Source of the DNA: a virus
IMG/VR virus record: IMGVR_UViG_3300042561_002100
Coordinates: 96,001 to 160,000 of that record
DNA length: 64,000 nt
Strand: one strand, 5' to 3'
Positions within the stretch are counted from its first letter, which is position 1. Every line of letters starts with the position of its first letter. A program made the position numbers and the translations under genes. This document shows positions 5,303-62,109 of the stretch, piece after piece. The notes beneath the pieces are model-generated. The model had not been told where the DNA came from. It ran no database searches and saw only the letters and a program-made list of their open reading frames with translations.

Positions 5303-5560
5303 ATGATGGATATTATGGAAGAACTAAGAATACTCTGCAAATGCTGTAACACCGAAATCGTAAAAACTGGTACTTGTGGATGTCCCAATATGGCATCAAT
5401 TCGTAACGATAGAATTTCTGCAGTTGACATGACTCAGATTGTTTTATTAACACCAATCAAATCTAAGACTTACAACAGCATCTTCTCTCCAACAGATCTG
5501 GCCGATCAAGAATCCAGAAGAAAGAGAAAAGTTCGTAAGCTAGAATTTGAAGTTCGCTAA
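5303..5560 (+). CDS. Conserved cyanophage hypothetical protein (Cys-containing)
   Basis: CKCC...CGCPN motif; preceded by CTAAATA at 5284-5290. Confidence 0.65.
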   Translation: MMDIMEELRILCKCCNTEIVKTGTCGCPNMASIRNDRISAVDMTQIVLLTPIKSKTYNSIFSPTDLADQESRRKRKVRKLEFEVR

Positions 5561-5577
5561 TCTCTTCACTCAAACTT

Positions 5578-5730
5578 ATGGACGACCGAATTAAACAAAA
5601 CTGGCAAAAAATTAAAGAGGCATTAGAAGCCTCAGGTAAAACAGATTGCCTCTTTTATCGCAGAGCGGTTTCTATTGTTAACACTGGTCATGATCCGTTT
5701 GAATCCGTTTTAAATAAAAATGAACCCTGA
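5578..5730 (+). CDS. Small cyanophage-type hypothetical protein (50 aa)
   Basis: MDDRIKQNWQKIKEALEASGKTDCLFYRRAV; resembles a small protein I recall from cyanomyoviruses. Confidence 0.6.
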   Translation: MDDRIKQNWQKIKEALEASGKTDCLFYRRAVSIVNTGHDPFESVLNKNEP

Positions 5731-5851
5731 AGAAATTGAAAAACCGATTGATAACAAGATTCGCCAACATGAGATCAGAGTTGGATGGATTAGTGGTGTT
5801 ATTGGCGCATTATTTACTTTTGGGGGTAATTCATGCTATCTGGTTGATTAA
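5720..5851 (+). CDS. Small cyanophage-type hypothetical protein (43 aa)
   Basis: IDNKIRQHEIRVGWISGVIG motif. Confidence 0.55.
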   Translation: MNPEEIEKPIDNKIRQHEIRVGWISGVIGALFTFGGNSCYLVD

Positions 5852-5854
5852 ACA

Positions 5855-6274
5855 ATGGATTCTTTGAATAATTCAGATATTATGGATATTTTTGATGATC
5901 CAAACACATCTCAAGAAACACTAAGAAAATTAGCGACTGATGAGAATTGGGAGGTTCGTTTGCGATTAGCAGGACATCCAAACACACCACCAGAAACTTT
6001 AGAACATCTAGCCGTAGATAAGTGTTACACTGTTCGTATGAATGTGGCACATAATCTAAGGACATCAACAAAAACACTAAAATTATTGGCGGAGGATAAA
6101 GATTTTCGTGTTCGTTGGGCAGTAGCACTAAACCGAAACACACCAATAAAAACACTAGAATTATTGGCGATGGATGAGGAGGCTGGTGTTCGTTATCGGG
6201 TAACAAATAACAAAATCTGCCCACATTATATCAAGAAGTTTCTTAAAATTCAAAAGCATCTGGCTAGATTATGA
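5855..6274 (+). CDS. HEAT/LRV-like 26-aa repeat protein, paralog 1 (4 repeats)
   Basis: xPNTPxxxLxxLAxDxxxxVRxxVAx repeats; cap PHYIKKFLKIQKHL. Confidence 0.9.
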   Translation: MDSLNNSDIMDIFDDPNTSQETLRKLATDENWEVRLRLAGHPNTPPETLEHLAVDKCYTVRMNVAHNLRTSTKTLKLLAEDKDFRVRWAVALNRNTPIKTLELLAMDEEAGVRYRVTNNKICPHYIKKFLKIQKHLARL

Positions 6275-6828
6275 GAAAAGTTAAACAAGCTAAAGATCCA
6301 TACACTTCAACCGAAATTCTAGAACAACTAGCGACCGATGAGGATTCTAGTGTTCGTTGGAATGTAGTACGTAATCCAAACACACCACCAGAAGCTCTAG
6401 AACAATTAGCGACTGACAAGAATCCTGGGGTTCGTTGGGAGGTAGCGAGAAATCCAAACACACCACCAGAAGCTCTAGAACAATTAGCGACTGACAAGAA
6501 TCCTGGGGTTCGTTGGGCAGTAGCACTACATCCAAACACCCCACCAACAACATTAGAACTTCTAGCGACCGATGATGATGATTATGTTCGTCAGGGAGTA
6601 GCACTACATCCAAACACCCCACCAAAAGCACTAGAAATTCTAGCGACCGATATGGATTATCGTGTTCGTTGGCGGGTAGCAAGATTACCAAATATACAAC
6701 CAAAATTATTAGAAATCTTAGCTACCGATGAGAATCCATATGTTCGTATATGGCTAGCACAAAATCCAAACACACCACGCTACATCAAAAAGTATCTTAA
6801 AATTCAAGAACAACTTCAAAAATTATGA
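6271..6828 (+). CDS. HEAT/LRV-like repeat protein, paralog 2 (6 repeats)
   Basis: Same repeat and cap; ATGA overlap with paralog 1. Confidence 0.9.
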   Translation: MRKVKQAKDPYTSTEILEQLATDEDSSVRWNVVRNPNTPPEALEQLATDKNPGVRWEVARNPNTPPEALEQLATDKNPGVRWAVALHPNTPPTTLELLATDDDDYVRQGVALHPNTPPKALEILATDMDYRVRWRVARLPNIQPKLLEILATDENPYVRIWLAQNPNTPRYIKKYLKIQEQLQKL

Positions 6829-6964
6829 CGACTTCCTTTGATGATAACGATCCACCACAGCTTAACTTTGATAAATTATACGAACGAATAAAACAACAAA
6901 GAATGGAAGAACTCTTTTCTGAGCCCTATGATGGTGATATGGAAGAAGAGGATTGAATTTATTC

Positions 6965-7037
6965 GCTCGTCTAGCCATCCGGTGAAGGCAACGAACTCAT
7001 AATTCGTAGGAGGTGGGTTCGATCCCCACGACGAGCA
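6965..7037 (+). tRNA. tRNA with CAU anticodon (elongator Met or lysidine-Ile2)
   Basis: Acceptor GCTCGTC/GACGAGC, anticodon stem ACGAA/TTCGT with loop CTCATAA, GTTCGATC T-loop; lacks the initiator GGG:CCC pairs. Confidence 0.9.
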
Positions 7038-7042
7038 TTGTG

Positions 7043-7099
7043 TGACAGTCAATAAACTGTACACAAATATCAACACTCTCAAGTGTTGTATGCTACTAT
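7043..7099 (+). promoter_or_regulatory. Palindromic element (TGACA-N10-TGTAC) plus extended -10 TG-C-TACTAT
   Basis: Right arm at 7058, -10 at 7094. Confidence 0.7.
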
Positions 7100-7156
7100 A
7101 AAAACGGTCAAAAGACCAATTGTTCCTTTATCTATTTTTTCTCATAATCGTTTAAA

Positions 7157-7384
7157 ATGACAAGAAAACCGTTTGATGGCAAGTTCAGTAAGGATATTCA
7201 TATTCTTACTCGTGCAACTAAAGGAGAAGTCTATCTCGGCGACTATCCCAAAATCATCAAAAAACTTAAACGTTATTTTACTGAGCAATATTCTGATATC
7301 CAATTCTATAATGAACCCGAATCCGATAATTTTTATTTATTGGATCTGATTCGGAATGAACTAGAAATTGATGTAGTGGTGTGA
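7157..7384 (+). CDS. Conserved cyanophage hypothetical protein
   Basis: First ORF after the promoter; recognisable small cyanophage ORF. Confidence 0.6.
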   Translation: MTRKPFDGKFSKDIHILTRATKGEVYLGDYPKIIKKLKRYFTEQYSDIQFYNEPESDNFYLLDLIRNELEIDVVV

Positions 7385-7387
7385 ATT

Positions 7388-7819
7388 ATGGATACCAATC
7401 TTTTTTGGAATCTGAGAGGTAATTATTCAGAACGTAAAGAAAAACTTTCTAAGATGTCTCGTGAGTATTTGGAAGCCTCTGTCTTAGATTCATGTTATAA
7501 TAACTTCATCACCAATATAGAGGAAAATAATACTACTGGCGTAAAGAGAATTCCTTATATTGGATGGTATTGGCGCCATGTAACATTTAGCGATTTTACC
7601 AATATCCGTATTGGAGATTGTGGTCAATTTGTTGGATTTATGGAGAGCAATAAGTGGGATCATCCAGAAAGATATCTTACCGAAGATGAGGGGTGTAGTA
7701 TTATTGCATTTATTGATAATGCAATGAGAATTCAAGAGGGAGCTAGTTCCGAGACAACTCTTGATATCGTTCTTCAAAATCTATGGGATTATATGCAAAC
7801 TTTGAAAATTGAAAGATGA
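7388..7819 (+). CDS. Hypothetical protein
   Basis: 143-aa ORF in the operon. Confidence 0.6.
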   Translation: MDTNLFWNLRGNYSERKEKLSKMSREYLEASVLDSCYNNFITNIEENNTTGVKRIPYIGWYWRHVTFSDFTNIRIGDCGQFVGFMESNKWDHPERYLTEDEGCSIIAFIDNAMRIQEGASSETTLDIVLQNLWDYMQTLKIER

Positions 7820-7998
7820 CTAATCTATTTGTAGGTGAATCCGATTTCCGAGAATGGTTGGAAGCTAATAATTTTTGGATTTATTCCTCATATAAAGATG
7901 ATCCATGGAATGAATGTAATTGGTATGCGTGTCGGCGGGTTGCCCCGGAAAGCCGAAGATGTGATTGTAATGATGAAAACCCGGATTACAATTGGTAA
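7816..7998 (+). CDS. Hypothetical protein
   Basis: ATGA-coupled ORF. Confidence 0.45.
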   Translation: MTNLFVGESDFREWLEANNFWIYSSYKDDPWNECNWYACRRVAPESRRCDCNDENPDYNW

Positions 7999-8320
7999 TC
8001 AGGCCATATCATTCCACCTATTTTACTAATTCTAGAACTGCTACATTTGAAATTATCGGGAAAACAAAAGGAATTTGGTATAATCTAACAGCTTATTCTA
8101 TCAATATTGATGATGTTCCTGAAAAAATAGACGAAGTTTCAGAATCACTTGCTCGCGCCTGGGAGGCTCTTGTTCTATGATACCAGAATTAATGATTCTT
8201 GGATTCCTATTGATTATTGCTTCTTTTTCTGGTAACGGAAGTAGTTCAATATCTTTTGAAAATAAAAATAAGCCAAAAGGGCCACCACTAAAATTTAAAA
8301 AAATCACAAAGGAAAAATAA

Positions 8321-8608
8321 ATGAGTAACACATTACATGTCTATGCACAGTCAGCACCACATGACAGTGTTTTTATCTGTGGAACTAAAGAATCACTAGA
8401 AAAACTAAGAGAAACATTAGATAATATTCTTACTGAAGATCTTAAGTTTGGTGCTTATGATGAGTTTACTAATGATGGCGAGGGATATAACGTACATATT
8501 GATTTGTTATCTGAAGAGAAAATGGAGCAGATGGCCGTTCCCTATAGTGATGAGATTTTCTGGAATAATGAATCCAATAAAACAAAAGTGTATCCTTGGT
8601 ATCTTTGA
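8321..8608 (+). CDS. Hypothetical protein
   Basis: 95-aa ORF preceded by a GGA-type RBS. Confidence 0.55.
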   Translation: MSNTLHVYAQSAPHDSVFICGTKESLEKLRETLDNILTEDLKFGAYDEFTNDGEGYNVHIDLLSEEKMEQMAVPYSDEIFWNNESNKTKVYPWYL

Positions 8609-8642
8609 ATAATAATCACCAACAAATAATGAATTTTGTATT

Positions 8643-8900
8643 ATGGATTACGGATTAACGCCATATTGTTTATCAAGAAATCCAAACACACCACCAAAAG
8701 CCCTAGAACAACTAGCGACCGATGAGTGGGGTCCTATTCGTTGTTGGGTAGCACTAAACCCAAACACTCCACCAACAACATTAAAACAACTAGCAACCGA
8801 TGAGGAATGGTATGTTCGTTGGGGTGTAGCACGAAATCCAAATACTCCACGCTATCTCAAGAAGTATCTTAAAATTCAAGAACATTTGGTGAGATTATGA
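8643..8900 (+). CDS. HEAT/LRV-like repeat protein, paralog 3 (2 repeats)
   Basis: Repeat plus cap PRYLKKYLKIQEHL. Confidence 0.85.
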   Translation: MDYGLTPYCLSRNPNTPPKALEQLATDEWGPIRCWVALNPNTPPTTLKQLATDEEWYVRWGVARNPNTPRYLKKYLKIQEHLVRL

Positions 8901-9454
8901 ACAAATTTGAACAAGCTAGAGATCCAAATACACCACAAGAAGAGTTAGAGCGTCTAGCTACTGATGATGAGTATCTGGTTCGTTGTGGTGTAGCACGAAA
9001 TCCATCCACACCAACAAAAGCCCTAGAACAACTAGCGACTGATAAGTGTGGTAATGCTCGTGAAGGAGTAGCAGATAATCCAAACACTCCACCAGAAATC
9101 CTAGAACAATTAGCGACCGATGAGGATTATTGGGTTCGTTGGAGAGTAGCACATAATCCAAACACACCACCAAAAGCCCTAGAACAACTAGCGACCGATG
9201 AGGATTCTAGTGTTCGTTATTGGGTAGCAGAAAATCCAAACACACCACCAAAAGCTCTAGAACAACTAGAGACCGATGAGAATTCTGATGTTCGTTGGAG
9301 TGTAGCAGATAATCCAAACACACCACCAAAAGCTCTAGAACAACTAGCGACCGATGAGAATTCTGATGTTCGTTGGAGTGTAGCAGATAATCCAAACACT
9401 CCACGCTATCTCAAAAAGTATCTTAAAATTCAAGAACATCTAGCTAAATTATGA
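8897..9454 (+). CDS. HEAT/LRV-like repeat protein, paralog 4 (6 repeats)
   Basis: MNKFEQARDPNTP N-cap, repeats, C-cap. Confidence 0.9.
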   Translation: MNKFEQARDPNTPQEELERLATDDEYLVRCGVARNPSTPTKALEQLATDKCGNAREGVADNPNTPPEILEQLATDEDYWVRWRVAHNPNTPPKALEQLATDEDSSVRYWVAENPNTPPKALEQLETDENSDVRWSVADNPNTPPKALEQLATDENSDVRWSVADNPNTPRYLKKYLKIQEHLAKL

Positions 9455-9771
9455 ACGCTATGGAAAAAGAAGAACAACTTCAAAGATTAGAATCTTATTT
9501 TGATCGTATTAAAAACACTCTTGAATTATGTGGCCCAAGTCAGGAGTTTATTGAAGAAGTAAGAGAACTTTTAGGATTTTCTCATGTAATAAGTGGAGTT
9601 GCTTGCTCAGAATGTGATGGATCCGGATATAAAGTCTATGGTTCTACTGCAGGATGGGCCGGAGGCATTGGTGGACAGACAATAACGACGAGTGTATGTG
9701 ATTGTTGCTGGGGAAGTGGAAGAAGTGATAAAAAATTCGGAGATTTAAGAAAACTTAGATCCATGTCTTAA
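9451..9771 (+). CDS. DnaJ-type zinc-finger protein
   Basis: CSECDGSG and CDCCWGSG (CxxCxGxG) motifs. Confidence 0.6.
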   Translation: MNAMEKEEQLQRLESYFDRIKNTLELCGPSQEFIEEVRELLGFSHVISGVACSECDGSGYKVYGSTAGWAGGIGGQTITTSVCDCCWGSGRSDKKFGDLRKLRSMS

Positions 9772-9782
9772 ATAGTTAAAAC

Positions 9783-10022
9783 GTGTATAATGGAAGAATG
9801 GACCGTTCAACTTTTTTACGCTACATAGGTAACATTTTTCTTATCGTTGGTTATTTCATTCTTCTTCATGTTGATATGACGGCTGGCCTTTTGATAAAAT
9901 GCATCGGTGGTTTCTTGACTGTTCCGTTTGCTGTTAAATACAAACTGTGGGATGTTGTCTTTATATGGGGCTTCTTCAGCTTTATTGAAATCGCCAAAAT
10001 TATTGAATTGCTTACTAAATGA
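9783..10022 (+). CDS. Small membrane protein
   Basis: Three hydrophobic segments. Confidence 0.6.
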   Translation: MYNGRMDRSTFLRYIGNIFLIVGYFILLHVDMTAGLLIKCIGGFLTVPFAVKYKLWDVVFIWGFFSFIEIAKIIELLTK

Positions 10023-10025
10023 ACT

Positions 10026-10823
10026 ATGTTAGCTAATAACTCAATAGGAAATCTCGGGAGACTCGGCAATCAAATGTTTCAATATGCTGCTCTTAGAGGA
10101 ATAGCGGTGGAACATAATTATGAGTATTGTCTTCCACCATTGAATTTCATTGCAACTCAAGATCCTAATTGTGCAACTAGCGATTGCACTATTTTTGATT
10201 GTTTTATGTTACCCGAAGCACCAAGACGACTGCTTTCTGGACCGATTCTAGAAGAATCTTCTTTTGAGTTTGACAATAATCTATGGAATTCGTGTCCTGA
10301 TAACGTTTCTCTTTATGGTTATTTTCAAAGCGAAAAATACTTTAACCATATAAAAGAGAACATAAGAAACTCTTTTCGGTTCAAAGAAACTTCTGAAATA
10401 TCTTATGCTTCTAGTTTCTTTAATGAGGAATTCAATAATACCTCAGTGATCTCCTTACACATTAGAAGAGGAGATTATCTTAAATACACTCATCATCCAA
10501 CTCTTCCGATGAGTTATTATGAAGACGCTCTTAGTCAGTTGCCTGATGTTCCAGTTTTTGTTTTTTCGGATGATGTGAATTGGTGTAAACAAGAAGTGTC
10601 ATTTCGTTCGGATAGATTTTATATTTCAGAATCTAACAGTACGGCAGTTGATCTTTATCTTCAATCCAGATGTAGTCATCATATTATTGCAAACAGTTCC
10701 TTTAGTTGGTGGGGAGCGTGGTTAGCTAAAAGTCAAAAAGTTATTGCACCGAAGCAATGGTTCGGACCACCACTAACACATAATACAAAAGATCTTTACT
10801 GTGAGGATTGGATTCAATGCTAA
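10026..10823 (+). CDS. GT11 alpha-1,2-fucosyltransferase
   Basis: GRLGNQMFQYA, GYFQSEKYF, LHIRRGDY, IIANSSFSWWGAWL. Confidence 0.92.
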   Translation: MLANNSIGNLGRLGNQMFQYAALRGIAVEHNYEYCLPPLNFIATQDPNCATSDCTIFDCFMLPEAPRRLLSGPILEESSFEFDNNLWNSCPDNVSLYGYFQSEKYFNHIKENIRNSFRFKETSEISYASSFFNEEFNNTSVISLHIRRGDYLKYTHHPTLPMSYYEDALSQLPDVPVFVFSDDVNWCKQEVSFRSDRFYISESNSTAVDLYLQSRCSHHIIANSSFSWWGAWLAKSQKVIAPKQWFGPPLTHNTKDLYCEDWIQC

Positions 10824-11434
10824 TTTCATTATCTGAAATGATAACAAAATATAATATGAATATTCGGGGTGTTATTCATATTGGCGCTCATTATGGCGAA
10901 GAGGTTCCCGAATACATTAAAAATGGAATTTCTGAACTTCATCTGTTTGAACCTCTGTCGGAAAACTATAAAATTTTAAGGAATAATCTCCAAGACCTAA
11001 AGATTAATTGGGCAACTTATCACTGTGCATTGGGAAATAAAAACGAAAGAGTTACAATGTTTGTTAGTGATAACCAACAACAAAGTAGCTCAATTCTTTC
11101 ACCGAAAGATCATCTAACACATCATCCAAATGTGAGATTTCCTACAACGGAAGAAGTTTTAGTCACTACTTTGGACTCTCAAGAAATTGAAAATTGTAAC
11201 TTCATTAATATGGATGTGCAGGGTTATGAGTTGGAAGTTCTTAAAGGTGCATCTAAAACTTTAGAACATGTTGAATATGTTTATTGTGAAGTCAATAGAG
11301 CCGAAGTTTATGAAAATAATGCTTTCGTAGAAGAGATTGATGAGTTCCTTTCTCAATACAATATGATCAGAGTGGAAACAGATTGGGCAGGAGAAATCTG
11401 GGGTGATGCACTTTATGTGAGAACCGAGAGATGA
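10808..11434 (+). CDS. FkbM-family methyltransferase
   Basis: IHIGAHYGEE, FEP, MDVQGYELEVLKGA. Confidence 0.9.
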   Translation: MDSMLISLSEMITKYNMNIRGVIHIGAHYGEEVPEYIKNGISELHLFEPLSENYKILRNNLQDLKINWATYHCALGNKNERVTMFVSDNQQQSSSILSPKDHLTHHPNVRFPTTEEVLVTTLDSQEIENCNFINMDVQGYELEVLKGASKTLEHVEYVYCEVNRAEVYENNAFVEEIDEFLSQYNMIRVETDWAGEIWGDALYVRTER

Positions 11435-12069
11435 AAACTTTAAATGATTATTTTGATGAGATTTATTGTATTAATCTTGATAGACGAGTAGATCGTTGGA
11501 AACAAGTAGAACAAGAGTTTATTAAACATTCAATAACAGTTAATCGTTATTCTGCTATTGATGGTCAAGAACTCAATATGGGATTATTTTCATATTCAAC
11601 AAACTTTGAGACTCCCGGACAATTAGCGTGTTTTATCTCACACTACAATATCATAAAAACTGCAAGATATAAAAATCTTTCTTCTGTTCTTATTCTTGAA
11701 GATGATGTCGTATTTTCTGAAAATTTTGATTCTCAATTAGAGCAGAAGATGCCAGATGTTCCCGAAAATTGGGATATGCTTTTCTTTGGTGCCAATCATA
11801 TTAGTGGTCCGATCCGAATCACAGATAATGTTTATAAGATGACAAGAGCTTATTCTGCACACTGTTATGCGATTAAGAATACGATGTTTGATATTCTTCT
11901 AGAACATCTTTGTCAATTCCGAGAACCTCTAGATGTCGTTTATGCTAATTTACAATCATCTATCAATTCTTATGTTCTTAATCCTCATTTAGTATGGCAG
12001 AATCCTGGATATTCTGATATCTGCGAACAGTCAGTAGATTATACACACGTTCATAAAATTTCATTTTGA
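11431..12069 (+). CDS. GT25 (LPS biosynthesis-type) glycosyltransferase
   Basis: CINLDRRVDRW, SAIDG, ACFISH, LILEDD. Confidence 0.85.
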   Translation: MKTLNDYFDEIYCINLDRRVDRWKQVEQEFIKHSITVNRYSAIDGQELNMGLFSYSTNFETPGQLACFISHYNIIKTARYKNLSSVLILEDDVVFSENFDSQLEQKMPDVPENWDMLFFGANHISGPIRITDNVYKMTRAYSAHCYAIKNTMFDILLEHLCQFREPLDVVYANLQSSINSYVLNPHLVWQNPGYSDICEQSVDYTHVHKISF

Positions 12070-18979: not shown

Positions 18980-19192
18980 ATGGCGCTATCAAATTCTGTT
19001 AATGAGAGTCTAGATGAGGCTCAATCACAACTTAAGAATGCATTGGCCTATGCTGCTCGTCAAGAAGCACCTTATGTAATGGTCGGTATCGCTAGAATTA
19101 TCCATGAAATTGATACGATTAAAAAGACAGATTCTGCGCATGAGCAACTTCAAAAATTTATTAATCAAATTAATCCTGACATTCAACTTTGA
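18980..19192 (+). CDS. Conserved cyanophage hypothetical protein
   Basis: MALSNSVNESLDEAQSQLKNALAYAARQE. Confidence 0.65.
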   Translation: MALSNSVNESLDEAQSQLKNALAYAARQEAPYVMVGIARIIHEIDTIKKTDSAHEQLQKFINQINPDIQL

Positions 19193-19614
19193 TTCTTTTT
19201 CTTCTACCTATCCGTATTCGTGAAGAGATGACACTAAATCCAAACACACCAACAAAAGCTCTAGAACAACTAGCGACCGATGAGGATTCTTGGGTTCGTT
19301 GTTGTGTAGCACTAAACCCAAACACACCACCAGAAGCTCTAGGACAATTAGCGACTGATGAAAATCCTAATGTTCGTTATTGGGTAGCAGAAAACCCAAA
19401 CACACCACCAGAAGCTCTAGGACAATTAGCGACTGATAAGAATCCTTATGTTCGTTATTGGGTAGCAGAAAACCCAAACACACCAATAAAAATCCTAGAA
19501 CAACTAGCTACCGATAAGGATTCTCTGGTTCGTCGTGGTGTTGTACAAAATCCAAACGCACCTCACTATCTCAAGAAGTATCTTAAAATTCAAGAACAAC
19601 TGGCGATGTTATGA
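19189..19614 (+). CDS. HEAT/LRV-like repeat protein, paralog 5 (4 repeats; start uncertain, TTG 19189 or ATG 19228)
   Basis: Repeats plus cap PHYLKKYLKIQEQL. Confidence 0.85.
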   Translation: MILFLLPIRIREEMTLNPNTPTKALEQLATDEDSWVRCCVALNPNTPPEALGQLATDENPNVRYWVAENPNTPPEALGQLATDKNPYVRYWVAENPNTPIKILEQLATDKDSLVRRGVVQNPNAPHYLKKYLKIQEQLAML

Positions 19615-20096
19615 ACAAATTTGAACAAGCTGGAGATCCAAACACTCAACCAAAAACCCTAGAACAACTAGCGACTGATGAGGAATATTTGGTTCGTTGT
19701 TGTGTAGCAAATAATCCAAACTCTTCACCCAAAACTCTAGAGCTTCTAGCGACCGATGAGGATTATCGTGTCCGTATTGTTGTAGCAGAAAATCTAAACA
19801 CTCCACTAGAAATCCTAGAACAACTGGCAACCGATGAGAATTCTGGTGTTCGTTATAATATAGCAAATAATCCAAACACACCACCAAAAGCCCTAGAACA
19901 ACTAGCGACCGATAGGTATTATGAGGTTCGTTGGAGGGTAGCATGTAATCAAAACATTCCACCAAAAGCTCTAGAACAACTAGCGACCGATGGGAATTGG
20001 GATGTTCGTTGTGAAGTAGCACTAAACCCAAACACACCACATTACATCAAAAAGTATATTAAAATTAAACAATACCTATCATGTCTACATTTTTAA
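19611..20096 (+). CDS. HEAT/LRV-like repeat protein, paralog 6 (5 repeats)
   Basis: MNKFEQAGDPNT N-cap, cap PHYIKKYIKIKQYL. Confidence 0.9.
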   Translation: MNKFEQAGDPNTQPKTLEQLATDEEYLVRCCVANNPNSSPKTLELLATDEDYRVRIVVAENLNTPLEILEQLATDENSGVRYNIANNPNTPPKALEQLATDRYYEVRWRVACNQNIPPKALEQLATDGNWDVRCEVALNPNTPHYIKKYIKIKQYLSCLHF

Positions 20097-22485: not shown

Positions 22486-23043
22486 ATGAACGAACTTGAC
22501 CAGGCTATAGATCCTAACACACCATCAACAATATTAGAACAACTAGCGACCGATGAGGATTGTGGTGTTCGTTGTTGTGTAGCACAAAATCCAAACACTT
22601 CATCAGAAATTCTAGAACAACTAGCAACTAATGATGAATGGTATGTTCGTTATTATGTATCATATAATCCAAACACATCACCGACAACATTAGAAGTTCT
22701 AGCGACAGATGAGGAATATTGGGTTCGTCGTGATGTAGCGTGTCATTCAAACACACCACCAACAACATTAGAACAACTAGCGACCGATGTGTATTCTAAT
22801 GTTCGTCATGGTGTAGCAGATAATCCAAATACTCCACCAAAAGTCTTAGAAATTCTAGCGACCGATGAGGAATATTGTGTTCGTTGGAGAGTAGCAGATA
22901 ATCCAAACACACCACCAAAAATCTTAGAACAACTAGCGACCGATGATGATTGGGATGTTCGTTGGAGGGTAGCAGGAAATCCAAACACACCACACTATAT
23001 CAAGAAGTATCTTAAAATTCAAGAACATTTGGCTAGATTATGA
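22486..23043 (+). CDS. HEAT/LRV-like repeat protein, paralog 7 (6 repeats)
   Basis: MNELDQAIDPNTP N-cap, cap PHYIKKYLKIQEHL. Confidence 0.9.
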   Translation: MNELDQAIDPNTPSTILEQLATDEDCGVRCCVAQNPNTSSEILEQLATNDEWYVRYYVSYNPNTSPTTLEVLATDEEYWVRRDVACHSNTPPTTLEQLATDVYSNVRHGVADNPNTPPKVLEILATDEEYCVRWRVADNPNTPPKILEQLATDDDWDVRWRVAGNPNTPHYIKKYLKIQEHLARL

Positions 23044-23351: not shown

Positions 23352-23645
23352 ATGATCAAATCGTATCTTGACCAACAACAGAATAATTGGAGAGAATATT
23401 GTAATAATTTTCTTTTAGCCGAAAATCCAAACACTTCACCTGAAATCCTAGAACAACTAGCGTCTGATGAGAGTTTTTATGTTCGTCGCTGTGTAGCGAG
23501 TCATCCAAACACACCACCAAAAGTCCTAGAACAACTAGCGACCGATGAGGAATATTATGTTCGTTGGAGTGTAGCACTAAATCCAAACACACCACGCTAT
23601 CTCAAAAAATATCTTAAAATTCAAGAACATCTAAAAACATTATAA
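23352..23645 (+). CDS. HEAT/LRV-like repeat protein, paralog 8 (2 repeats)
   Basis: Repeats plus cap PRYLKKYLKIQEHL; TATAAT at 23338. Confidence 0.85.
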   Translation: MIKSYLDQQQNNWREYCNNFLLAENPNTSPEILEQLASDESFYVRRCVASHPNTPPKVLEQLATDEEYYVRWSVALNPNTPRYLKKYLKIQEHLKTL

Positions 23646-48484: not shown

Positions 48485-48690
48485 GACCCGAAACTCGTGA
48501 AGCTATGGAGAATCTCTTTGGTGCAAAATGGAATGTACCAAAAGCGGCGGATTATTGTAATCTCACCAACAAAGAGTGTAAAATTGTCTTTAATGAATAT
48601 TGTCGCCTAAATCCTCCAACATATGTTCAAGAAAGTTCTTTTGATCTACTTGTGTTATCTCATTCTGATGATGTGAAAGATGAATCTTGA
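48481..48690 (+). CDS. Conserved cyanophage hypothetical protein
   Basis: MRPETREAMENLFGAKWNVPKAA. Confidence 0.65.
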   Translation: MRPETREAMENLFGAKWNVPKAADYCNLTNKECKIVFNEYCRLNPPTYVQESSFDLLVLSHSDDVKDES

Positions 48691-49381
48691 TAATAAAAGC
48701 GATATCATACATGATGACATTGAAAGTCTTTCATTGGATGATAGAATTAATCTGGCATATAATCCAAACACCCCACCAACAACATTAGATCAACTAGCTA
48801 CTAATGAGCATTATTGGGTTCGTTATTGGGTAGCACAACATCCAAACACACCACCAAAAGCCCTAGAACAACTAGCGACCGATGAGGAATATTATGGTAT
48901 TCGTCGTGAAGTAGCACAAAACCGAAACACACCACCAAAAGTCCTAGAACAACTAGCGACCGATGAGGAATATTATGGTATTCGTCGTGAAGTAGCACAA
49001 AACCGAAACACACCACCAAAAGTCCTAGAACAACTAGCGACCGATGAGGATCTTTATGTTCGTTATTGGGTAGCACAACATCCAAACACACCACCAAAAG
49101 CCCTAGAACAACTAGCGACCGATGAGGATTCTAGTGTTCGTTGTTGGGTAGCAGAAAATCCAAACACTCCACCAAAAGCTCTAGAACAACTAGCGACCGA
49201 TGAGGATTCTGGTGTTCGTTGGAGTGTAGCACATAATCCAAACACACCACCAAAAGCTCTAGAACAACTAGCGACCGATGAGGATTCTAGTGTTCGTTAT
49301 AGGGTAGCACTAAATCCAAACACTCCCCACTACATCAAAAAGTATATTAAAATTCAGGAGCACCTAAAAACATTTGACTAA
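48680..49381 (+). CDS. HEAT/LRV-like repeat protein, paralog 9 (7 repeats, two of 27 aa)
   Basis: Repeats plus cap PHYIKKYIKIQEHL. Confidence 0.9.
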   Translation: MNLDNKSDIIHDDIESLSLDDRINLAYNPNTPPTTLDQLATNEHYWVRYWVAQHPNTPPKALEQLATDEEYYGIRREVAQNRNTPPKVLEQLATDEEYYGIRREVAQNRNTPPKVLEQLATDEDLYVRYWVAQHPNTPPKALEQLATDEDSSVRCWVAENPNTPPKALEQLATDEDSGVRWSVAHNPNTPPKALEQLATDEDSSVRYRVALNPNTPHYIKKYIKIQEHLKTFD

Positions 49382-59382: not shown

Positions 59383-59784
59383 ATGAACAAACTTGAACAA
59401 GCTAGAGATCCAAACACACCACCAAAAGCCCTAGAACAACTAGCGACTGATGAGCATTATGGTGTTCGTTGGTTTGTAGCAGAAAATCCAAACACACCAA
59501 TAAAAACTCTAGAACAATTAGCGACCGATAAGGATTCTTCGGTTCGTCGTGGTGTAGCATATAATCCAAACACTCCACCAAAAGCCTTAGAACAACTAGC
59601 GACCGATGAGGATCTTTATGTTCGTTGGTGGGTAGCACTAAATCCAAACACACCACCAACAATATTAGAAATTCTAGCGTCCGATGTTGCTTATTGTATT
59701 CGTGAAGGAGTAGCAGAAAACCCAAACACACCACACTATATCAAAAAGTATCTTAAAATTCAAAAACAACTCCAAAAACTATGA
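59383..59784 (+). CDS. HEAT/LRV-like repeat protein, paralog 10 (4 repeats)
   Basis: MNKLEQARDPNTP N-cap; cap PHYIKKYLKIQKQL. Confidence 0.9.
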   Translation: MNKLEQARDPNTPPKALEQLATDEHYGVRWFVAENPNTPIKTLEQLATDKDSSVRRGVAYNPNTPPKALEQLATDEDLYVRWWVALNPNTPPTILEILASDVAYCIREGVAENPNTPHYIKKYLKIQKQLQKL

Positions 59785-61052
59785 AACTCTTGACCGACTT
59801 TCAACCAAGGCAATCTCAGAAAGAGGTTGTTGATATTATGAGTGAGCATAACAAACTCAGAATTATCGCACCTACTTCTGCAGGCAAGAGCTTTATGATC
59901 TTCTTGGATATCTTCAATAAGATGCAAACACAAGAAGATTCACTTTTTGTTATTGTTTCATCCAGAATTCTTTTACTCCAACAACTTTCTTCTGAGTATT
60001 CTAAACTTATCGGTAATACTCACATTGTTCATATGCATTCTGGAGATAGTAATAATCGTAAGATCACTGATTATCTGGAGTTCGCTTATTGGTGTGAGAA
60101 AGTCAAAGGACCAAAGGTTGTCTTTGTCACTTATCACTCATTGAAGAAGATTGTTAAATCCGAAGTAGAAATTGATGCGATTTATCTTGATGAGTGTCAT
60201 AATGGTGCAAAGAAACACTTTTTTGAATATGTTAAAGGTGCTGAAGTCATCTCCAAATCTCTTTATAGCTTCACTGCAACTCCTCGTTATCATGAGGATC
60301 CCAAAAAGAATGGTAATAACAATGTAGAAGTTTATGGTAGCGAAGTCTATAATATTAACGCGGTAGAACTCATTAAAAATGGTTCAATTCTTCCACCTAA
60401 GATTTCACCACTTCGTATTCCAGATGTACGTGAAAGAAAGAAAGATGTCCATGAAAGAGATTATTATACGTTGATGGATTGTCTTCTCAATGAAGATAAT
60501 ACCGATAGAGTTCTTATTACTTGTCCTTCAACAAGATCTTTGATGGATCTTCTGTGTTTGACTGATTTTGTGCAAGATCTTAACAATAATGGATATGACC
60601 TATTTCATATCACATCAAAGTATGGTGCATTCCATAATAAAACAAAACTTAAGAGAACCGAGTTTCTCAAAAGAATTGAAGATTATGGAAAAGAAGATAA
60701 AAAATTTGTGATTCTTCATTATAGTATTCTAACAGAAGGGTGGAGCAATAATTCCATTCAATCTTCTATTTTTATGCGACCTCAGAGTATGGGTGCAACG
60801 GTACAGAATGTTGGTCGTACTTTACGATTGGGTCATACAGATATTGAGAGAATCAATAATGGTGAATTGATTCCTGGAGATTATGACAATTATGAGAAAC
60901 CATATGGTAATGTTATTGTTCCTGTTTATGAGAACACTGGTTCAAATATTCAAGAACAAGTAGAGTATGTTATTGATGAAGTGTTTGAGCGAGGTAATTA
61001 TGTGTTTGATGTTATTACATCACCAAAAGAAAAAGAGAAAGAGGTGGCATGA
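59781..61052 (+). CDS. SF2 (DExH-box) helicase
   Basis: APTSAGKS, LDECH, TATP, ILTEGW, QNVGRTLR. Confidence 0.85.
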   Translation: MKLLTDFQPRQSQKEVVDIMSEHNKLRIIAPTSAGKSFMIFLDIFNKMQTQEDSLFVIVSSRILLLQQLSSEYSKLIGNTHIVHMHSGDSNNRKITDYLEFAYWCEKVKGPKVVFVTYHSLKKIVKSEVEIDAIYLDECHNGAKKHFFEYVKGAEVISKSLYSFTATPRYHEDPKKNGNNNVEVYGSEVYNINAVELIKNGSILPPKISPLRIPDVRERKKDVHERDYYTLMDCLLNEDNTDRVLITCPSTRSLMDLLCLTDFVQDLNNNGYDLFHITSKYGAFHNKTKLKRTEFLKRIEDYGKEDKKFVILHYSILTEGWSNNSIQSSIFMRPQSMGATVQNVGRTLRLGHTDIERINNGELIPGDYDNYEKPYGNVIVPVYENTGSNIQEQVEYVIDEVFERGNYVFDVITSPKEKEKEVA

Positions 61053-61708
61053 TGGTAGAATCTAGAAATGTTTATGATCGTTGTGATCTAGCAAATAATC
61101 CAAACACACCAACAGAAATCCTAGAACAACTAGCGACCGATGAGAAATGGTATGTTCGTTGTCGAGTAGCAGAAAACCCAAACACACCACCAAAAGTTCT
61201 AGAACTACTAGCGACCGATGAGGATTCTAGTGTTCGTTATTGTGTAGCAATACATCCAAACACACCACCAAAAGTTCTAGAACTACTAGCGACCGATGAG
61301 GATTCTAGTGTTCGTTATTGTGTAGCAATACATCCAAACACACCACCAAAAGCCCTAGAACTACTAGCGACCGATAATGCGCCTTCTGTTCGTTATAATG
61401 TAGCAGAAAATCCAAACACTCCACCAAAAGTCCTAGTACAATTTACGACCGATGCGCATTGGAATGTTCGTTGTGGAGTAGCAGAAAATCCAAACACACC
61501 ACCAAAAGCACTAGAATTACTAGCTACCAATGGGAGTTCTAATGTTCGTTGGATAGTAGCACAAAATCCAAATACACCAATAAAAACGCTAGAAGTTCTA
61601 GCATCCGATAAGGATTATTATGTTCGTTATTGGGTATCAACTAACCCAAACACTCCACACTACATCAAAAAGTATATTAAAATTCAAGACCACCTAAAAA
61701 CATTATGA
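61049..61708 (+). CDS. HEAT/LRV-like repeat protein, paralog 11 (7 repeats)
   Basis: Repeats plus cap PHYIKKYIKIQDHL. Confidence 0.9.
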   Translation: MMVESRNVYDRCDLANNPNTPTEILEQLATDEKWYVRCRVAENPNTPPKVLELLATDEDSSVRYCVAIHPNTPPKVLELLATDEDSSVRYCVAIHPNTPPKALELLATDNAPSVRYNVAENPNTPPKVLVQFTTDAHWNVRCGVAENPNTPPKALELLATNGSSNVRWIVAQNPNTPIKTLEVLASDKDYYVRYWVSTNPNTPHYIKKYIKIQDHLKTL

Positions 61709-62109
61709 ACAAACTTGAACAAGCTAGAGATCCTAACACTCCACCAGAGATCCTAGAACAACTAGCTACCGATGAAGATTCTTGTGTTCGTTCTAGGGTA
61801 GCAAGACATCCTAACACTCTACCAACAACATTAGAACTTTTAGCTACTGATAATGATTATTGGGTTCTTTGGGATGTAACAGAACATCCAAACACACCAC
61901 CAAAAGTTCTAGAACAACTAGCGACCGATTATCGATATTGGGTTCGTTGGAACGTAGCAGAAAATCCAAACACTCCACCAAAAGTTCTAGAACAACTGGC
62001 AACTGATGAGAGTTATAGAGTTCGTTATTACGTGGCAGGAAATCCAAACACACCCCGCTACATCAAAAAGTATCTTAAAATTCAAGAGCAGCTTAGGTCA
62101 CTTCCATAA
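61705..62109 (+). CDS. HEAT/LRV-like repeat protein, paralog 12 (4 repeats)
   Basis: MNKLEQARDPNTP N-cap; cap PRYIKKYLKIQEQL. Confidence 0.9.
   Translation: MNKLEQARDPNTPPEILEQLATDEDSCVRSRVARHPNTLPTTLELLATDNDYWVLWDVTEHPNTPPKVLEQLATDYRYWVRWNVAENPNTPPKVLEQLATDESYRVRYYVAGNPNTPRYIKKYLKIQEQLRSLP

What the first reader, a model, noticed from the sequence alone, without database searches (positions are those of the whole stretch)
8897..9454. Variation is confined to a few repeat positions, as in an engineered binder library
Seen in sequence: across all paralogs the framework (NPNTP, L, LA, D, VR, VA) is nearly fixed. Positions 17-19, 22, 23 and 26 vary freely and are rich in Y, W, R, C, S, G, N and D (e.g. 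EYLVRCG, DYWVRWR, DSSVRYW, NSDVRWS, EWYVRYY, HYGVRWF). Established: designed alphaRep (HEAT-like) and DARPin binders randomise one helical face with similar aromatic/Arg-rich residues. Inference: these positions form a concave binding surface under diversifying selection, so each paralog may have its own target, or the repeats may read a polymer in a code-like way.
Basis: partly seen in the sequence, partly recalled or inferred. Interest (0 to 1): 0.8.

Follow-up and report, generated by a model that had tools for sequence, protein, structure and literature searches.

The report
Phage family of hypervariable solenoid binders
A T4-like phage from lake water carries 24 small genes built from one 26-residue helical repeat whose scaffold is kept uniform while six residues on one helix face change fast, which suggests a natural set of binding proteins whose targets are unknown.

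Summary
Gene 8897-9454 encodes a 185-aa Pfam LRV (PF01816) protein with an N-cap, six 26-aa repeats and a C-cap. The window holds 12 paralogs with 57 repeats. The whole 179.5-kb T4-like phage record holds 24 paralogs with 100 repeats.

- **Where the variation sits:** Positions 17, 18, 19, 22, 23 and 26 have 2.6-3.4 bits of entropy and framework positions under 0.7. The six sites carry 49% of pairwise amino-acid differences. Positions 8, 11 and 16 form a second tier.
- **Structure:** The AlphaFold model (pLDDT 97.8) puts positions 18-26 in helix B. The variable sites lie on one helical face, opposite V20/R21/V24/A25. They match the randomised positions of alphaRep, which were themselves taken from natural HEAT-like repeats.
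- **Selection:** Variable-site pN is 4.7 times neighbouring framework pS and 2.1 times its own pS. Each phage lineage uses its own framework codons, which indicates concerted evolution. Whole repeats are also duplicated and exchanged between paralogs.
- **Alternatives:** No reverse transcriptase was found. A polymer code is unlikely because 335 of 359 six-residue words are unique.

The targets are unknown, and concavity is inferred by homology. First-reader notes on an overlapping window of this genome record the same family. A follow-up on another phage reports an LRV solenoid.

The parts
8897..9454 (+). Focal gene: 185-aa LRV-repeat protein with an N-cap, six 26-aa repeats and a C-cap helix
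   Evidence: ORF. Pfam LRV PF01816 at E 2e-44, 147 bits against a 21.6-bit cut-off. AlphaFold pLDDT 97.8, 14 alternating helices.
8921..9388 (+). Six tandem 78-bp repeat units starting at 8921, 8999, 9077, 9155, 9233 and 9311. Variable codons are 17-19, 22, 23 and 26 of each unit.
   Evidence: Units placed with a position-specific score matrix. NPxTP motif starts. Within-gene differences per position.
9389..9454 (+). Conserved C-cap (NPNTP-R/H-Y-I/L-KKY-I/L-KIQE..L). Its stop overlaps the ATG of the next gene (TTATGA).
   Evidence: Tail present in nearly all 24 paralogs. Predicted helix 170-184.
8643..8900 (+). Upstream tandem paralog, 85 aa with 2 repeats. Its stop overlaps the focal gene's start.
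   Evidence: (LRV E 1.3e-15).
5855..6274 (+). LRV paralog (4 repeats)
6271..6828 (+). LRV paralog (6 repeats)
19189..19614 (+). LRV paralog (4 repeats). The start is uncertain: TTG at 19189 or ATG at 19228.
19611..20096 (+). LRV paralog (5 repeats)
22486..23043 (+). LRV paralog (6 repeats)
23352..23645 (+). LRV paralog (2 repeats)
48680..49381 (+). LRV paralog (7 repeats, two of them 27-aa variants duplicated exactly)
59383..59784 (+). LRV paralog (4 repeats)
61049..61708 (+). LRV paralog (7 repeats)
61705..62109 (+). LRV paralog (4 repeats)
   Evidence: Identical copy on contig L003.

Best explanation
The gene belongs to a phage multigene family of small alpha-solenoid proteins of the LRV type, a short relative of HEAT-like repeats. 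There are 24 genes and 100 repeats, covering 6.2% of a T4-like lake-water phage genome.

Each 26-residue repeat is a helix A - loop - helix B hairpin. The invariant residues (NPNTP turn, L9, L12, A13, D15, V20, R21, V24, A25) build the core and the turns. Position 17 (helix N-cap) and positions 18, 19, 22, 23 and 26 (one face of helix B) line up from repeat to repeat into a continuous solvent-exposed stripe.

I infer that this stripe is a protein-binding surface. Each paralog would then bind a different partner, most likely a host protein or a defence protein, during infection.

Diversity arises in three ways:
1. Point substitutions at the six codons, favoured by selection.
2. Duplication and loss of whole 78-bp units.
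3. Exchange of units and caps between paralogs by homologous recombination through the uniform scaffold DNA.

The same recombination keeps the scaffold homogeneous within each phage lineage.

What is shown: the fold class, the location of the variable sites on one helical face, faster amino-acid change at those sites, concerted evolution, and unit shuffling. What is inferred: that the face binds ligands, that it is the concave face, and what the ligands are.
For: **Family and fold**
- Pfam LRV at E 2e-44, and HEAT at E 3.6e-10.
- By sequence, 1LRV is the only solved match.
- By Foldseek, 1LRV is the top hit. alphaRep binders score TM 0.70-0.76, and PP2A-A HEAT repeats also match.

**Position of the variable sites**
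- Helix B spans positions 18-26 in the model.
- The variable sites coincide with the alphaRep library positions that form its binding face (PMC3754942). The position-specific biases for proline at 18 and small residues at 23 also match.

**Selection**
- Take unit pairs that are identical or differ by at most 1 nt in codons 1-13. In these, the interleaved framework codons have pS 0.10, while the variable codons have pN 0.44-0.46 and pS 0.21.
- Bootstrap ratios are 4.7 (3.2-8.0) and 2.06 (1.45-2.96).
- Trp, Cys and Tyr are enriched about 4- to 19-fold over genome usage. Enrichment of Trp, Tyr and Arg at interface hot spots is established knowledge.

**Concerted evolution**
- Framework codons are lineage-specific and often not the genome's preferred ones. 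Examples are CGT for R21 and GAG for E16, against 58% AGA and 75% GAA genome-wide.
- Given the same amino acid, two units share the codon with probability 0.72 within a lineage and 0.41 between lineages. Identity at the variable sites stays at 0.15 and 0.12.

**Turnover between relatives**
- Flanking DNA is 91-98% identical to contig L019, while the LRV genes are 73-86% identical with indels. One 120-aa gene in L019 stands in place of the 8643 + 8897 pair.
- In orthologs, some units are conserved exactly and others are replaced. The same cassettes recur in different paralogs.

**Use of LRV repeats for recognition elsewhere**
- A metagenomic protein has Trypsin_2 + NACHT + C-terminal LRV repeats, which is the sensor position of NLR-like proteins.

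**Distribution**
- Five related phage records each carry 23-44 LRV matches. Three of them are 100% complete genomes of 110-145 kb.
Against: - No ligand, no expression data and no interface are known.
- I had no model coordinates. Exposure is deduced from helical periodicity, and concavity only from homology.
- The pN and pS values are uncorrected Nei-Gojobori proportions on non-independent, recombining sequences.
- Strong preference for T-ending codons (82-86% genome-wide) can depress pS and inflate the ratio of 2.1.
- Diversity at each variable codon stays close, in codon space, to a few codons (TGT, TAT, TGG, GAT). Part of the 'binder-like' palette may therefore reflect mutational neighbourhood rather than selection for those residues.
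- Many units keep their variable residues unchanged between orthologs. Change is therefore episodic and partly by cassette replacement, not steady point mutation.
Confidence: 0.6

Rival explanations
1. The proteins are inert or generic scaffolds, for example structural spacers or chaperone-like solenoids. The six positions vary only because exposed residues are free to drift.
For: Exposed positions of any solenoid are its least constrained. The same positions are also the most variable in giant cyanobacterial LRV proteins. No partner is known.
Against: Relaxed constraint cannot raise pN above pS, yet the ratios are 2.06 and 4.7 and both confidence intervals exclude 1. The residue palette is far from what an AT-rich genome would drift to: W and C are 0.9% genome-wide but 9-18% at these sites. 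The other exposed face, on helix A (K7, E10, Q11, T14), is nearly fixed in this lineage, so exposure alone does not produce variation.
Confidence: 0.12
2. Diversity is produced by a dedicated mechanism, either a diversity-generating retroelement or programmed cassette switching, rather than by ordinary mutation, recombination and selection.
For: Variation is sharply localised within a uniform scaffold. Units and caps are exchanged between paralogs. Contig L003 joins two distant paralogs through a shared unit.
Against: There is no reverse transcriptase (PF00078) in the 179.5-kb record, which is 83% complete. Variation involves all four bases and differs by codon position, with no adenine-specific pattern. 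The unique part of the gene (8860-9087, first two repeats) is identical in contigs from three lake-water runs, one from 2020 and two from 2024. That argues against ongoing hypermutation.
Confidence: 0.05
3. The repeats read a linear polymer (nucleic acid, or an extended peptide) one unit per repeat, with the variable residues acting as a recognition code, as in TALE, PPR, PUF or armadillo proteins.
For: The architecture is modular, with a few specificity positions per repeat. JGI auto-annotation calls some homologs AlkC-like, a DNA-binding HEAT-like glycosylase.
Against: 335 of 359 six-residue words are unique, and the commonest word occurs three times. Arrays have only 2-7 units. Most products are acidic or neutral: 20 of 24 have pI 4.5-6.7 and the focal protein has net charge -13. 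AlkC matches the family profile only at E 0.7. Modular peptide reading in the armadillo manner is not excluded.
Confidence: 0.07
4. The variable faces mediate pairing among the paralogs themselves, for example the two products of each translationally coupled tandem pair. They would then co-evolve with each other rather than with host targets.
For: Twelve of the 24 genes form six overlapping pairs joined by an ATGA stop/start overlap, and five more sit in two larger overlapping clusters. alphaRep A3 and its binder interact through their variable faces (PMC3754942).
Against: Pair composition is not conserved. In L019 a single gene replaces the pair. Solo paralogs also exist at 48680 and 59383.
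Confidence: 0.1

Closest known systems
Pfam LRV (PF01816), leucine-rich repeat variant; the only solved member is Azotobacter vinelandii 1LRV
   Same: The HMM matches far above its cut-off. 1LRV is the only sequence hit and the top fold hit among solved structures. The motif P..L..L..D....VR..VA is shared.
   Different: The repeat is 26 residues with an NPNTP turn, against 24 in 1LRV, so two residues per repeat are gapped. The proteins are small, 72-233 aa, with dedicated N- and C-caps. They occur as 24 paralogs in a phage. No function has been assigned to 1LRV either (from my own knowledge).
alphaRep artificial binders and the natural HEAT-like repeats they were derived from (PMC3754942)
   Same: Two-helix solenoid with TM 0.70-0.76 to alphaRep structures. 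The same variable positions (18, 19, 22, 23, 26) flank the fixed V-R and A-A/V-A pairs. The biases for Pro at 18 and small residues at 23 are the same. In alphaRep these positions form the binding face.
   Different: The repeat is 26 aa, not 31, and there is no position-30 equivalent. The natural palette here is rich in Cys and Trp, whereas the library excludes Cys. That V20/R21 and A24/A25 of the alphaRep motif align with V20/R21/V24/A25 here is from my memory of the motif plus the matching biases. I did not check it with a residue-level alignment.
Expanded repeat-protein families of large eukaryotic viruses (poxvirus and giant-virus ankyrin families with a C-terminal PRANC/F-box); established knowledge
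   Same: Many paralogs per genome, a solenoid binding scaffold with variable surfaces, a conserved C-terminal element, and rapid gain, loss and recombination between relatives.
   Different: The fold (LRV versus ankyrin) and the host domain (bacteria) differ. The conserved tail here is an 18-residue cap helix with no known adaptor function.
TALE repeats (near-identical repeats with hypervariable residues 12 and 13)
   Same: The scaffold is homogenised at the DNA level, diversity is kept at a few codons per repeat, and repeats are shuffled by recombination.
   Different: There is no small recurrent alphabet. Arrays are short and the proteins acidic. There is no evidence of nucleic-acid binding.
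Giant LRV-repeat proteins of filamentous cyanobacteria (Calothrix, Tolypothrix, Rivularia, Aerosakkonema and others), the closest named cellular relatives
   Same: They have the same 26-aa NPNTP-type unit and are 35-42% identical to the focal protein. Positions 16-19, 22 and 26 are the most variable there too.
   Different: They are 600-1900 aa, mostly with no named product. Helix A is also variable, and there is no Y/W/C/R enrichment: position 23 is mostly Ala, and 18, 19 and 22 are ordinary mixed residues.

Membership tests
Pfam LRV (PF01816) | Whole-protein score above the curated gathering cut-off | tested here: met
   147.4 bits against 21.6, six matched stretches. 75 matches across the genome.
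Pfam LRV (PF01816) | Solenoid of short helix-helix hairpins as in 1LRV | tested here: met
   AlphaFold model has 14 alternating helices of 7 and 9 residues, pLDDT 97.8. Foldseek top hit is 1LRV at E 1.2e-6, TMq 0.66. This is a prediction, not an experimental structure.
HEAT-like / alphaRep-type repeats | D....VR..[AV]A motif at the start of helix B, with variable positions 18, 19, 22, 23 and 26 on one face | tested here: met
   Pfam HEAT at 39.6 bits against 23.5. Entropy profile. alphaRep positions and biases. PP2A-A repeats align on the D....VR..VA motif.
HEAT-like / alphaRep-type repeats | Repeat length of about 31 (alphaRep) or 37-47 (canonical HEAT) residues | tested here: not met
   The unit is 26 residues, with two 27-residue variants.
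HEAT-like / alphaRep-type repeats | Variable face is the concave surface | not testable with these tools
Inferred only from homology.
Diversity-generating retroelement target | Reverse transcriptase and a template repeat nearby | tested here: not met
   No PF00078 match in the record, which is 83% complete.
Diversity-generating retroelement target | Variation restricted to template adenines | tested here: not met
   All four bases vary, and the free base differs from codon to codon.
Code-reading repeat proteins (TALE, PPR, PUF) | Small recurrent alphabet of specificity residues | tested here: not met
   335 distinct six-residue words among 359 units, with a maximum count of 3.
Code-reading repeat proteins (TALE, PPR, PUF) | Long arrays and a basic binding surface | tested here: not met
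   2-7 units per gene. pI is 4.5-6.7 in 20 of 24 products.
Known phage protein families (PHROGs) and defence or anti-defence models (PADLOC) | Match to an existing family | tested here: not met
   No PHROG for the focal protein, and one weak hit (phrog_20647, unknown function) for a paralog. Only a spurious 20-bit PADLOC hit. Of 50,697 phage records, one (Moorella phage MTATph1) matches, at 31% identity.

The most novel reading that the evidence does not exclude
Some uncultured phage lineages, including this T4-like one, maintain a germline repertoire of binders. It consists of one minimal 26-residue scaffold kept uniform by recombination, and a six-residue paratope per repeat kept diverse by selection and reshuffled between two dozen genes. 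The phage would then carry a standing library of inhibitors or adaptors against variable host defence or surface-remodelling proteins. Functionally this would be a non-DGR, recombination-based counterpart of an immune repertoire in a virus of bacteria.
Probability: 0.2. Interest if true: 0.85.

Novelty: new variant of a known kind. Interest (0 to 1): 0.6.

Why it matters
Expanded repeat-protein families are well known in poxviruses, giant viruses and intracellular bacteria, where they act as host-manipulation tools. They are hardly described in phages. This LRV family is absent from PHROGs and is matched, distantly, in only one of 50,697 deposited phage genomes. It nevertheless takes up 6% of this genome, and each of five related uncultured phage records also carries 23-44 LRV matches.

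If the products are binders, finding their targets would reveal which host functions a freshwater T4-like phage needs to hit in many variants. It would also give the LRV domain a first functional handle. That domain has had a structure since 1997 but, to my knowledge, no assigned function.

For protein engineers, this is a natural 26-residue two-helix scaffold, shorter than alphaRep. Its tolerated and variable positions have already been mapped by evolution.

Tried and rejected
- **Population-level variation:** Only Logan contigs were available, not reads. Contigs from all paralogs and from other phages pile onto the repeats, at depth 80-330 against 5-7 in the flanks, and assemblies break inside the genes. 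The listed 'other letters' in 9110-9410 therefore cannot be read as polymorphism. Only the unique stretch 8860-9087 was usable.
- **RNA evidence:** No RNA holder was listed, so nothing can be said about expression.
- **Complex prediction for the tandem pair 8643 + 8897:** No support (score 0.15, mark 0.32). This is not evidence either way.
- **Promoter scan of 5500-10100:** 13 sigma-70-like sites against 16.1 expected by chance, which is uninformative.
- **Literature:** I found no paper on LRV repeats in phages and no accessible description of 1LRV geometry.
- **Scan of reference prokaryote genomes:** It used exact peptide patterns and gave only three loci, in a Prevotella MAG and a Klebsiella MAG contig. 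This is no help for host assignment.
- **First nearest-neighbour dN/dS:** It conditioned on framework similarity and so biased framework pS downwards. I replaced it with the split-half design.
- **Solvent accessibility:** It could not be computed because the model file was not placed in the script box.
- **Cyanophage assignment:** Not established. There is no psbA in the record. There is only 66-73% nucleotide similarity of the glycosyltransferase block to Synechococcus and Prochlorococcus phages, and the closest named cellular LRV proteins are cyanobacterial.

Full report
**What is there**

The ORF at 8897-9454 (+) encodes 185 aa. Pfam assigns it to LRV (PF01816) at E 2e-44. Weaker overlapping hits are LRV_2, HEAT and HEAT_2.

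The protein has three parts:
- an 8-residue N-terminal cap;
- six 26-residue units starting at 8921, 8999, 9077, 9155, 9233 and 9311;
- a C-terminal cap that begins with one more NPNTP turn.

Its stop overlaps the ATG of the next gene, and its own ATG overlaps the stop of an 85-aa two-repeat paralog at 8643-8900.

The window holds 12 such genes with exactly 57 units. The window is bases 96001-160000 of a 179,526-bp IMG/VR virus record. That record holds 24 such genes and 100 units, which is 6.2% of its DNA.

The record is from a T4-like phage. It has a Gp23 capsid gene at E 2.5e-138, together with baseplate, tail, RNA ligase and NAMPT genes. The same sequence is held by lake-water metagenomes. 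No psbA was found, and the host is unknown.

**The observation**

Entropy per repeat position separates three classes.

In the 57 window units:
- Positions 17, 18, 19, 22, 23 and 26 have 2.6-3.3 bits.
- Positions 8, 11 and 16 have 1.6-2.1 bits.
- The framework positions 3, 4, 9, 12, 13, 15, 20, 21 and 24 have 0-0.4 bits.

The order is the same in 98 genome units and in 359 distinct units from this and related phage contigs.

The six positions are 23% of the unit and carry 49% of all pairwise amino-acid differences. Variation is therefore concentrated there but not confined there.

The residue palette is as described. In the 359 units, position 22 is Y 78, W 64, C 61 and R 37, and position 23 is G 62, R 49, W 39, A 37 and C 32. 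Genome-wide, W and C are each 0.9% and Y is 4.6%.

At the codon level the variation is structured:
- Position 17 is mostly NAT.
- Position 18 is mostly TNT or TGG.
- Position 22 is mostly TAT, TGG, TGT or CGT.
- Position 23 is mostly NGN.
- Position 26 is mostly NNA.

Most of the palette lies within one or two base changes of TGT, TAT, TGG and GAT. Cys is the single-step bridge between Tyr, Trp and Arg codons. I suggest this explains its odd abundance, but that is inference.

**Structure**

AlphaFold2 was run with a 44-row alignment. It gives pLDDT 97.8 and pTM 0.90, with alternating helices of 7 and 9 residues.

In repeat numbering, helix A is positions 6-12 and helix B is positions 18-26. 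On a helical wheel:
- Positions 18, 19, 22, 23 and 26 fall within a 140-degree arc.
- V20, R21, V24 and A25 fall within the opposite 200-340-degree arc.
- Position 17, mostly D, N or S, is the N-cap.

The variable sites are therefore on one face of one helix and repeat along the solenoid as a stripe.

Foldseek ranks 1LRV first. alphaRep binders follow at TM 0.70-0.76, along with the PP2A A-subunit HEAT repeats. A family profile aligns the D....VR..VA motif with PP2A-A repeats.

The alphaRep library paper states the following (PMC3754942):
- The randomised positions are 18, 19, 22, 23, 26 and 30.
- They were chosen from natural HEAT-like repeats.
- Proline is commonest at 18 and absent from 22 to 30.
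- Small residues are frequent at 23.
- These positions lie on the concave binding face.

Here proline is found 28 times at position 18, and 0, 1 and 0 times at positions 22, 23 and 26. Small residues peak at 23, in 118 of 359 units. The correspondence is therefore one of homology, not coincidence.

It also means that the resemblance to an engineered library is partly circular, because the library was copied from nature.

**Selection and concerted evolution**

A first nearest-neighbour analysis was biased by conditioning on framework similarity, so I used a split-half design instead. I selected unit pairs that are identical or differ by at most 1 nt in codons 1-13. In those pairs I measured only codons 14-26.

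Results for the 212 pairs with at most 1 nt difference:
- The interleaved framework codons (14-16, 20, 21, 24, 25) have pS 0.10.
- The variable codons have pN 0.46 and pS 0.22.
- Bootstrapping over units gives variable pN over framework pS of 4.7 (95% CI 3.2-8.0).
- Variable pN over variable pS is 2.06 (CI 1.45-2.96).

Framework codons are 'frozen' and often not the genome's preferred ones. R21 is CGT against 58% AGA genome-wide, and E16 is GAG against 75% GAA.

Each phage lineage has its own set of framework codons:

| Lineage | L9 | L12 | A13 | V24 |
|---|---|---|---|---|
| G000 clade | CTA | CTA | GCG | GTA |
| L004 | TTA | CTG | GCT | GTT |
| L006 | CTA | CTT | GCC | GTT |
| L015-18 | CTT | CTT | GCA | GTT |

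L006 also uses CGC for R21.

Given the same amino acid, two units share the codon with probability 0.72 within a lineage and 0.41 between lineages. Identity at the variable sites is 0.15 and 0.12. That is the signature of concerted evolution of the scaffold, with diversity held at six codons that sit one or two codons away from homogenised ones. Gene conversion cannot skip them, so selection must be keeping them different.

Caveats:
- The distances are uncorrected proportions.
- The pairs are not independent.
- The sequences recombine.
- T-ending codon bias lowers pS.

**Turnover between related phages**

Against contig L019, flanking DNA is mostly 91-98% identical in 250-bp windows. The LRV genes fall to 73-86% with large gaps. 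One 120-aa gene occupies the place of the 8643 + 8897 pair.

Ortholog alignments are mosaics. Some units are conserved exactly, variable residues included. Others differ only at the variable sites: for example D17H, Y22C, C23G and I26R in one unit of the 50409 gene against L009, where flanks are 95% identical. Still others are replaced by cassettes that occur in different paralogs.

Exact tandem unit duplications occur in several genes. Diversity therefore comes from point change at the six codons, unit duplication and loss, and inter-paralog exchange.

There is no reverse transcriptase in the record. The unique first two repeats of the focal gene are identical in contigs from three lake-water runs, one from 2020 and two from 2024. 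Nothing therefore points to a hypermutation device.

**Function**

There is no direct evidence of function. The arguments for a binding role are:
- the fold class, since HEAT-like solenoids are binding scaffolds;
- the homologous face being the binding face of alphaRep;
- the aromatic, Arg and Cys enrichment;
- faster amino-acid change together with an almost fixed opposite face (K7, E10, Q11, T14);
- one metagenomic protein with LRV repeats in the C-terminal sensor position of a Trypsin_2-NACHT protein.

A polymer code is unlikely:
- 335 of 359 six-residue words are unique.
- Arrays have 2-7 units.
- Most products are acidic, and the focal protein has net charge -13 and pI 4.6.

Giant LRV proteins of filamentous cyanobacteria, the closest named relatives, vary at the same positions. 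They lack the Y/W/C/R palette, and helix A varies in them too. The sharp contrast seen here is therefore specific to the phage lineages.

**Novelty**

- The family has no PHROG.
- Only one distant match exists in 50,697 deposited phage genomes.
- I found no paper linking LRV repeats to phages.
- Five related IMG/VR phage records each carry 23-44 LRV matches, and three of them are complete genomes.
- The kind of system, an expanded viral solenoid family with variable surfaces, is known from ankyrin families of large eukaryotic viruses.
- The pattern of variable positions is known from HEAT-like repeats.

I therefore class this as a new variant of a known kind.

First-reader notes on an overlapping window of this genome describe the same family (e1-5820192, e1-5820195). 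A follow-up on another T4-like phage reports a 19-unit LRV solenoid inside an Alt-like ADP-ribosyltransferase (e1-3539263). I did not check that report.

Noticed in passing
L003:4911-5528, against genome 50409-50792 (-) and window 61010-61708 (+): The 8.9-kb IMG/VR contig L003 carries a hybrid LRV gene. Its 5' part and upstream flank match the minus-strand paralog at genome 50.4 kb (96% identity). Its 3' part and downstream flank match window 61200-64003 (99.5% identity). The two are joined inside a unit that both paralogs share. This is either a roughly 107-kb inversion between inverted paralogs or an assembly chimera.
   Followed up: partly
window 9451-9771 (+): The 106-aa gene that overlaps the focal gene's stop has two CxxCxGxG motifs of the DnaJ zinc-finger type. 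It has no Pfam or PHROG match.
   Followed up: partly
window 6271, 6825, 8897, 9451, 19611, 23040, 59781, 61705: Most paralogs end in TTATGA. The embedded ATG starts the next gene, whether that gene is another paralog (MNK...) or is unrelated. This suggests translational coupling, and a shared junction at which whole genes could be swapped.
   Followed up: partly
window 48839-49000: Two 27-residue variant units, with one extra residue before the VR motif (YYGIRRE), are exact tandem copies inside the 48680 gene.
   Followed up: no
L005:4992-7235: A related phage contig encodes a 747-aa protein made almost entirely of LRV units, directly after a 99-aa paralog. Short and long forms therefore coexist in the clade.
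   Followed up: no
P0233 (metagenomic protein, 1106 aa): Its architecture is Trypsin_2 + NACHT + C-terminal LRV repeats, an NLR-like layout in which LRV repeats take the sensor position.
   Followed up: partly
window 10026-12069: A block of glycosyltransferase family 11, FkbM methyltransferase and glycosyltransferase family 25 genes lies just downstream. It is the only part of 8000-12000 with nucleotide similarity (66-73%) to Synechococcus and Prochlorococcus myoviruses.
   Followed up: no
genome 49370-49939 (-), outside the window: One paralog has a 52-residue insert without the repeat motif (it contains KICWQALKISDTQ) in place of two units. The insert is conserved exactly in the ortholog on L009.
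   Followed up: no
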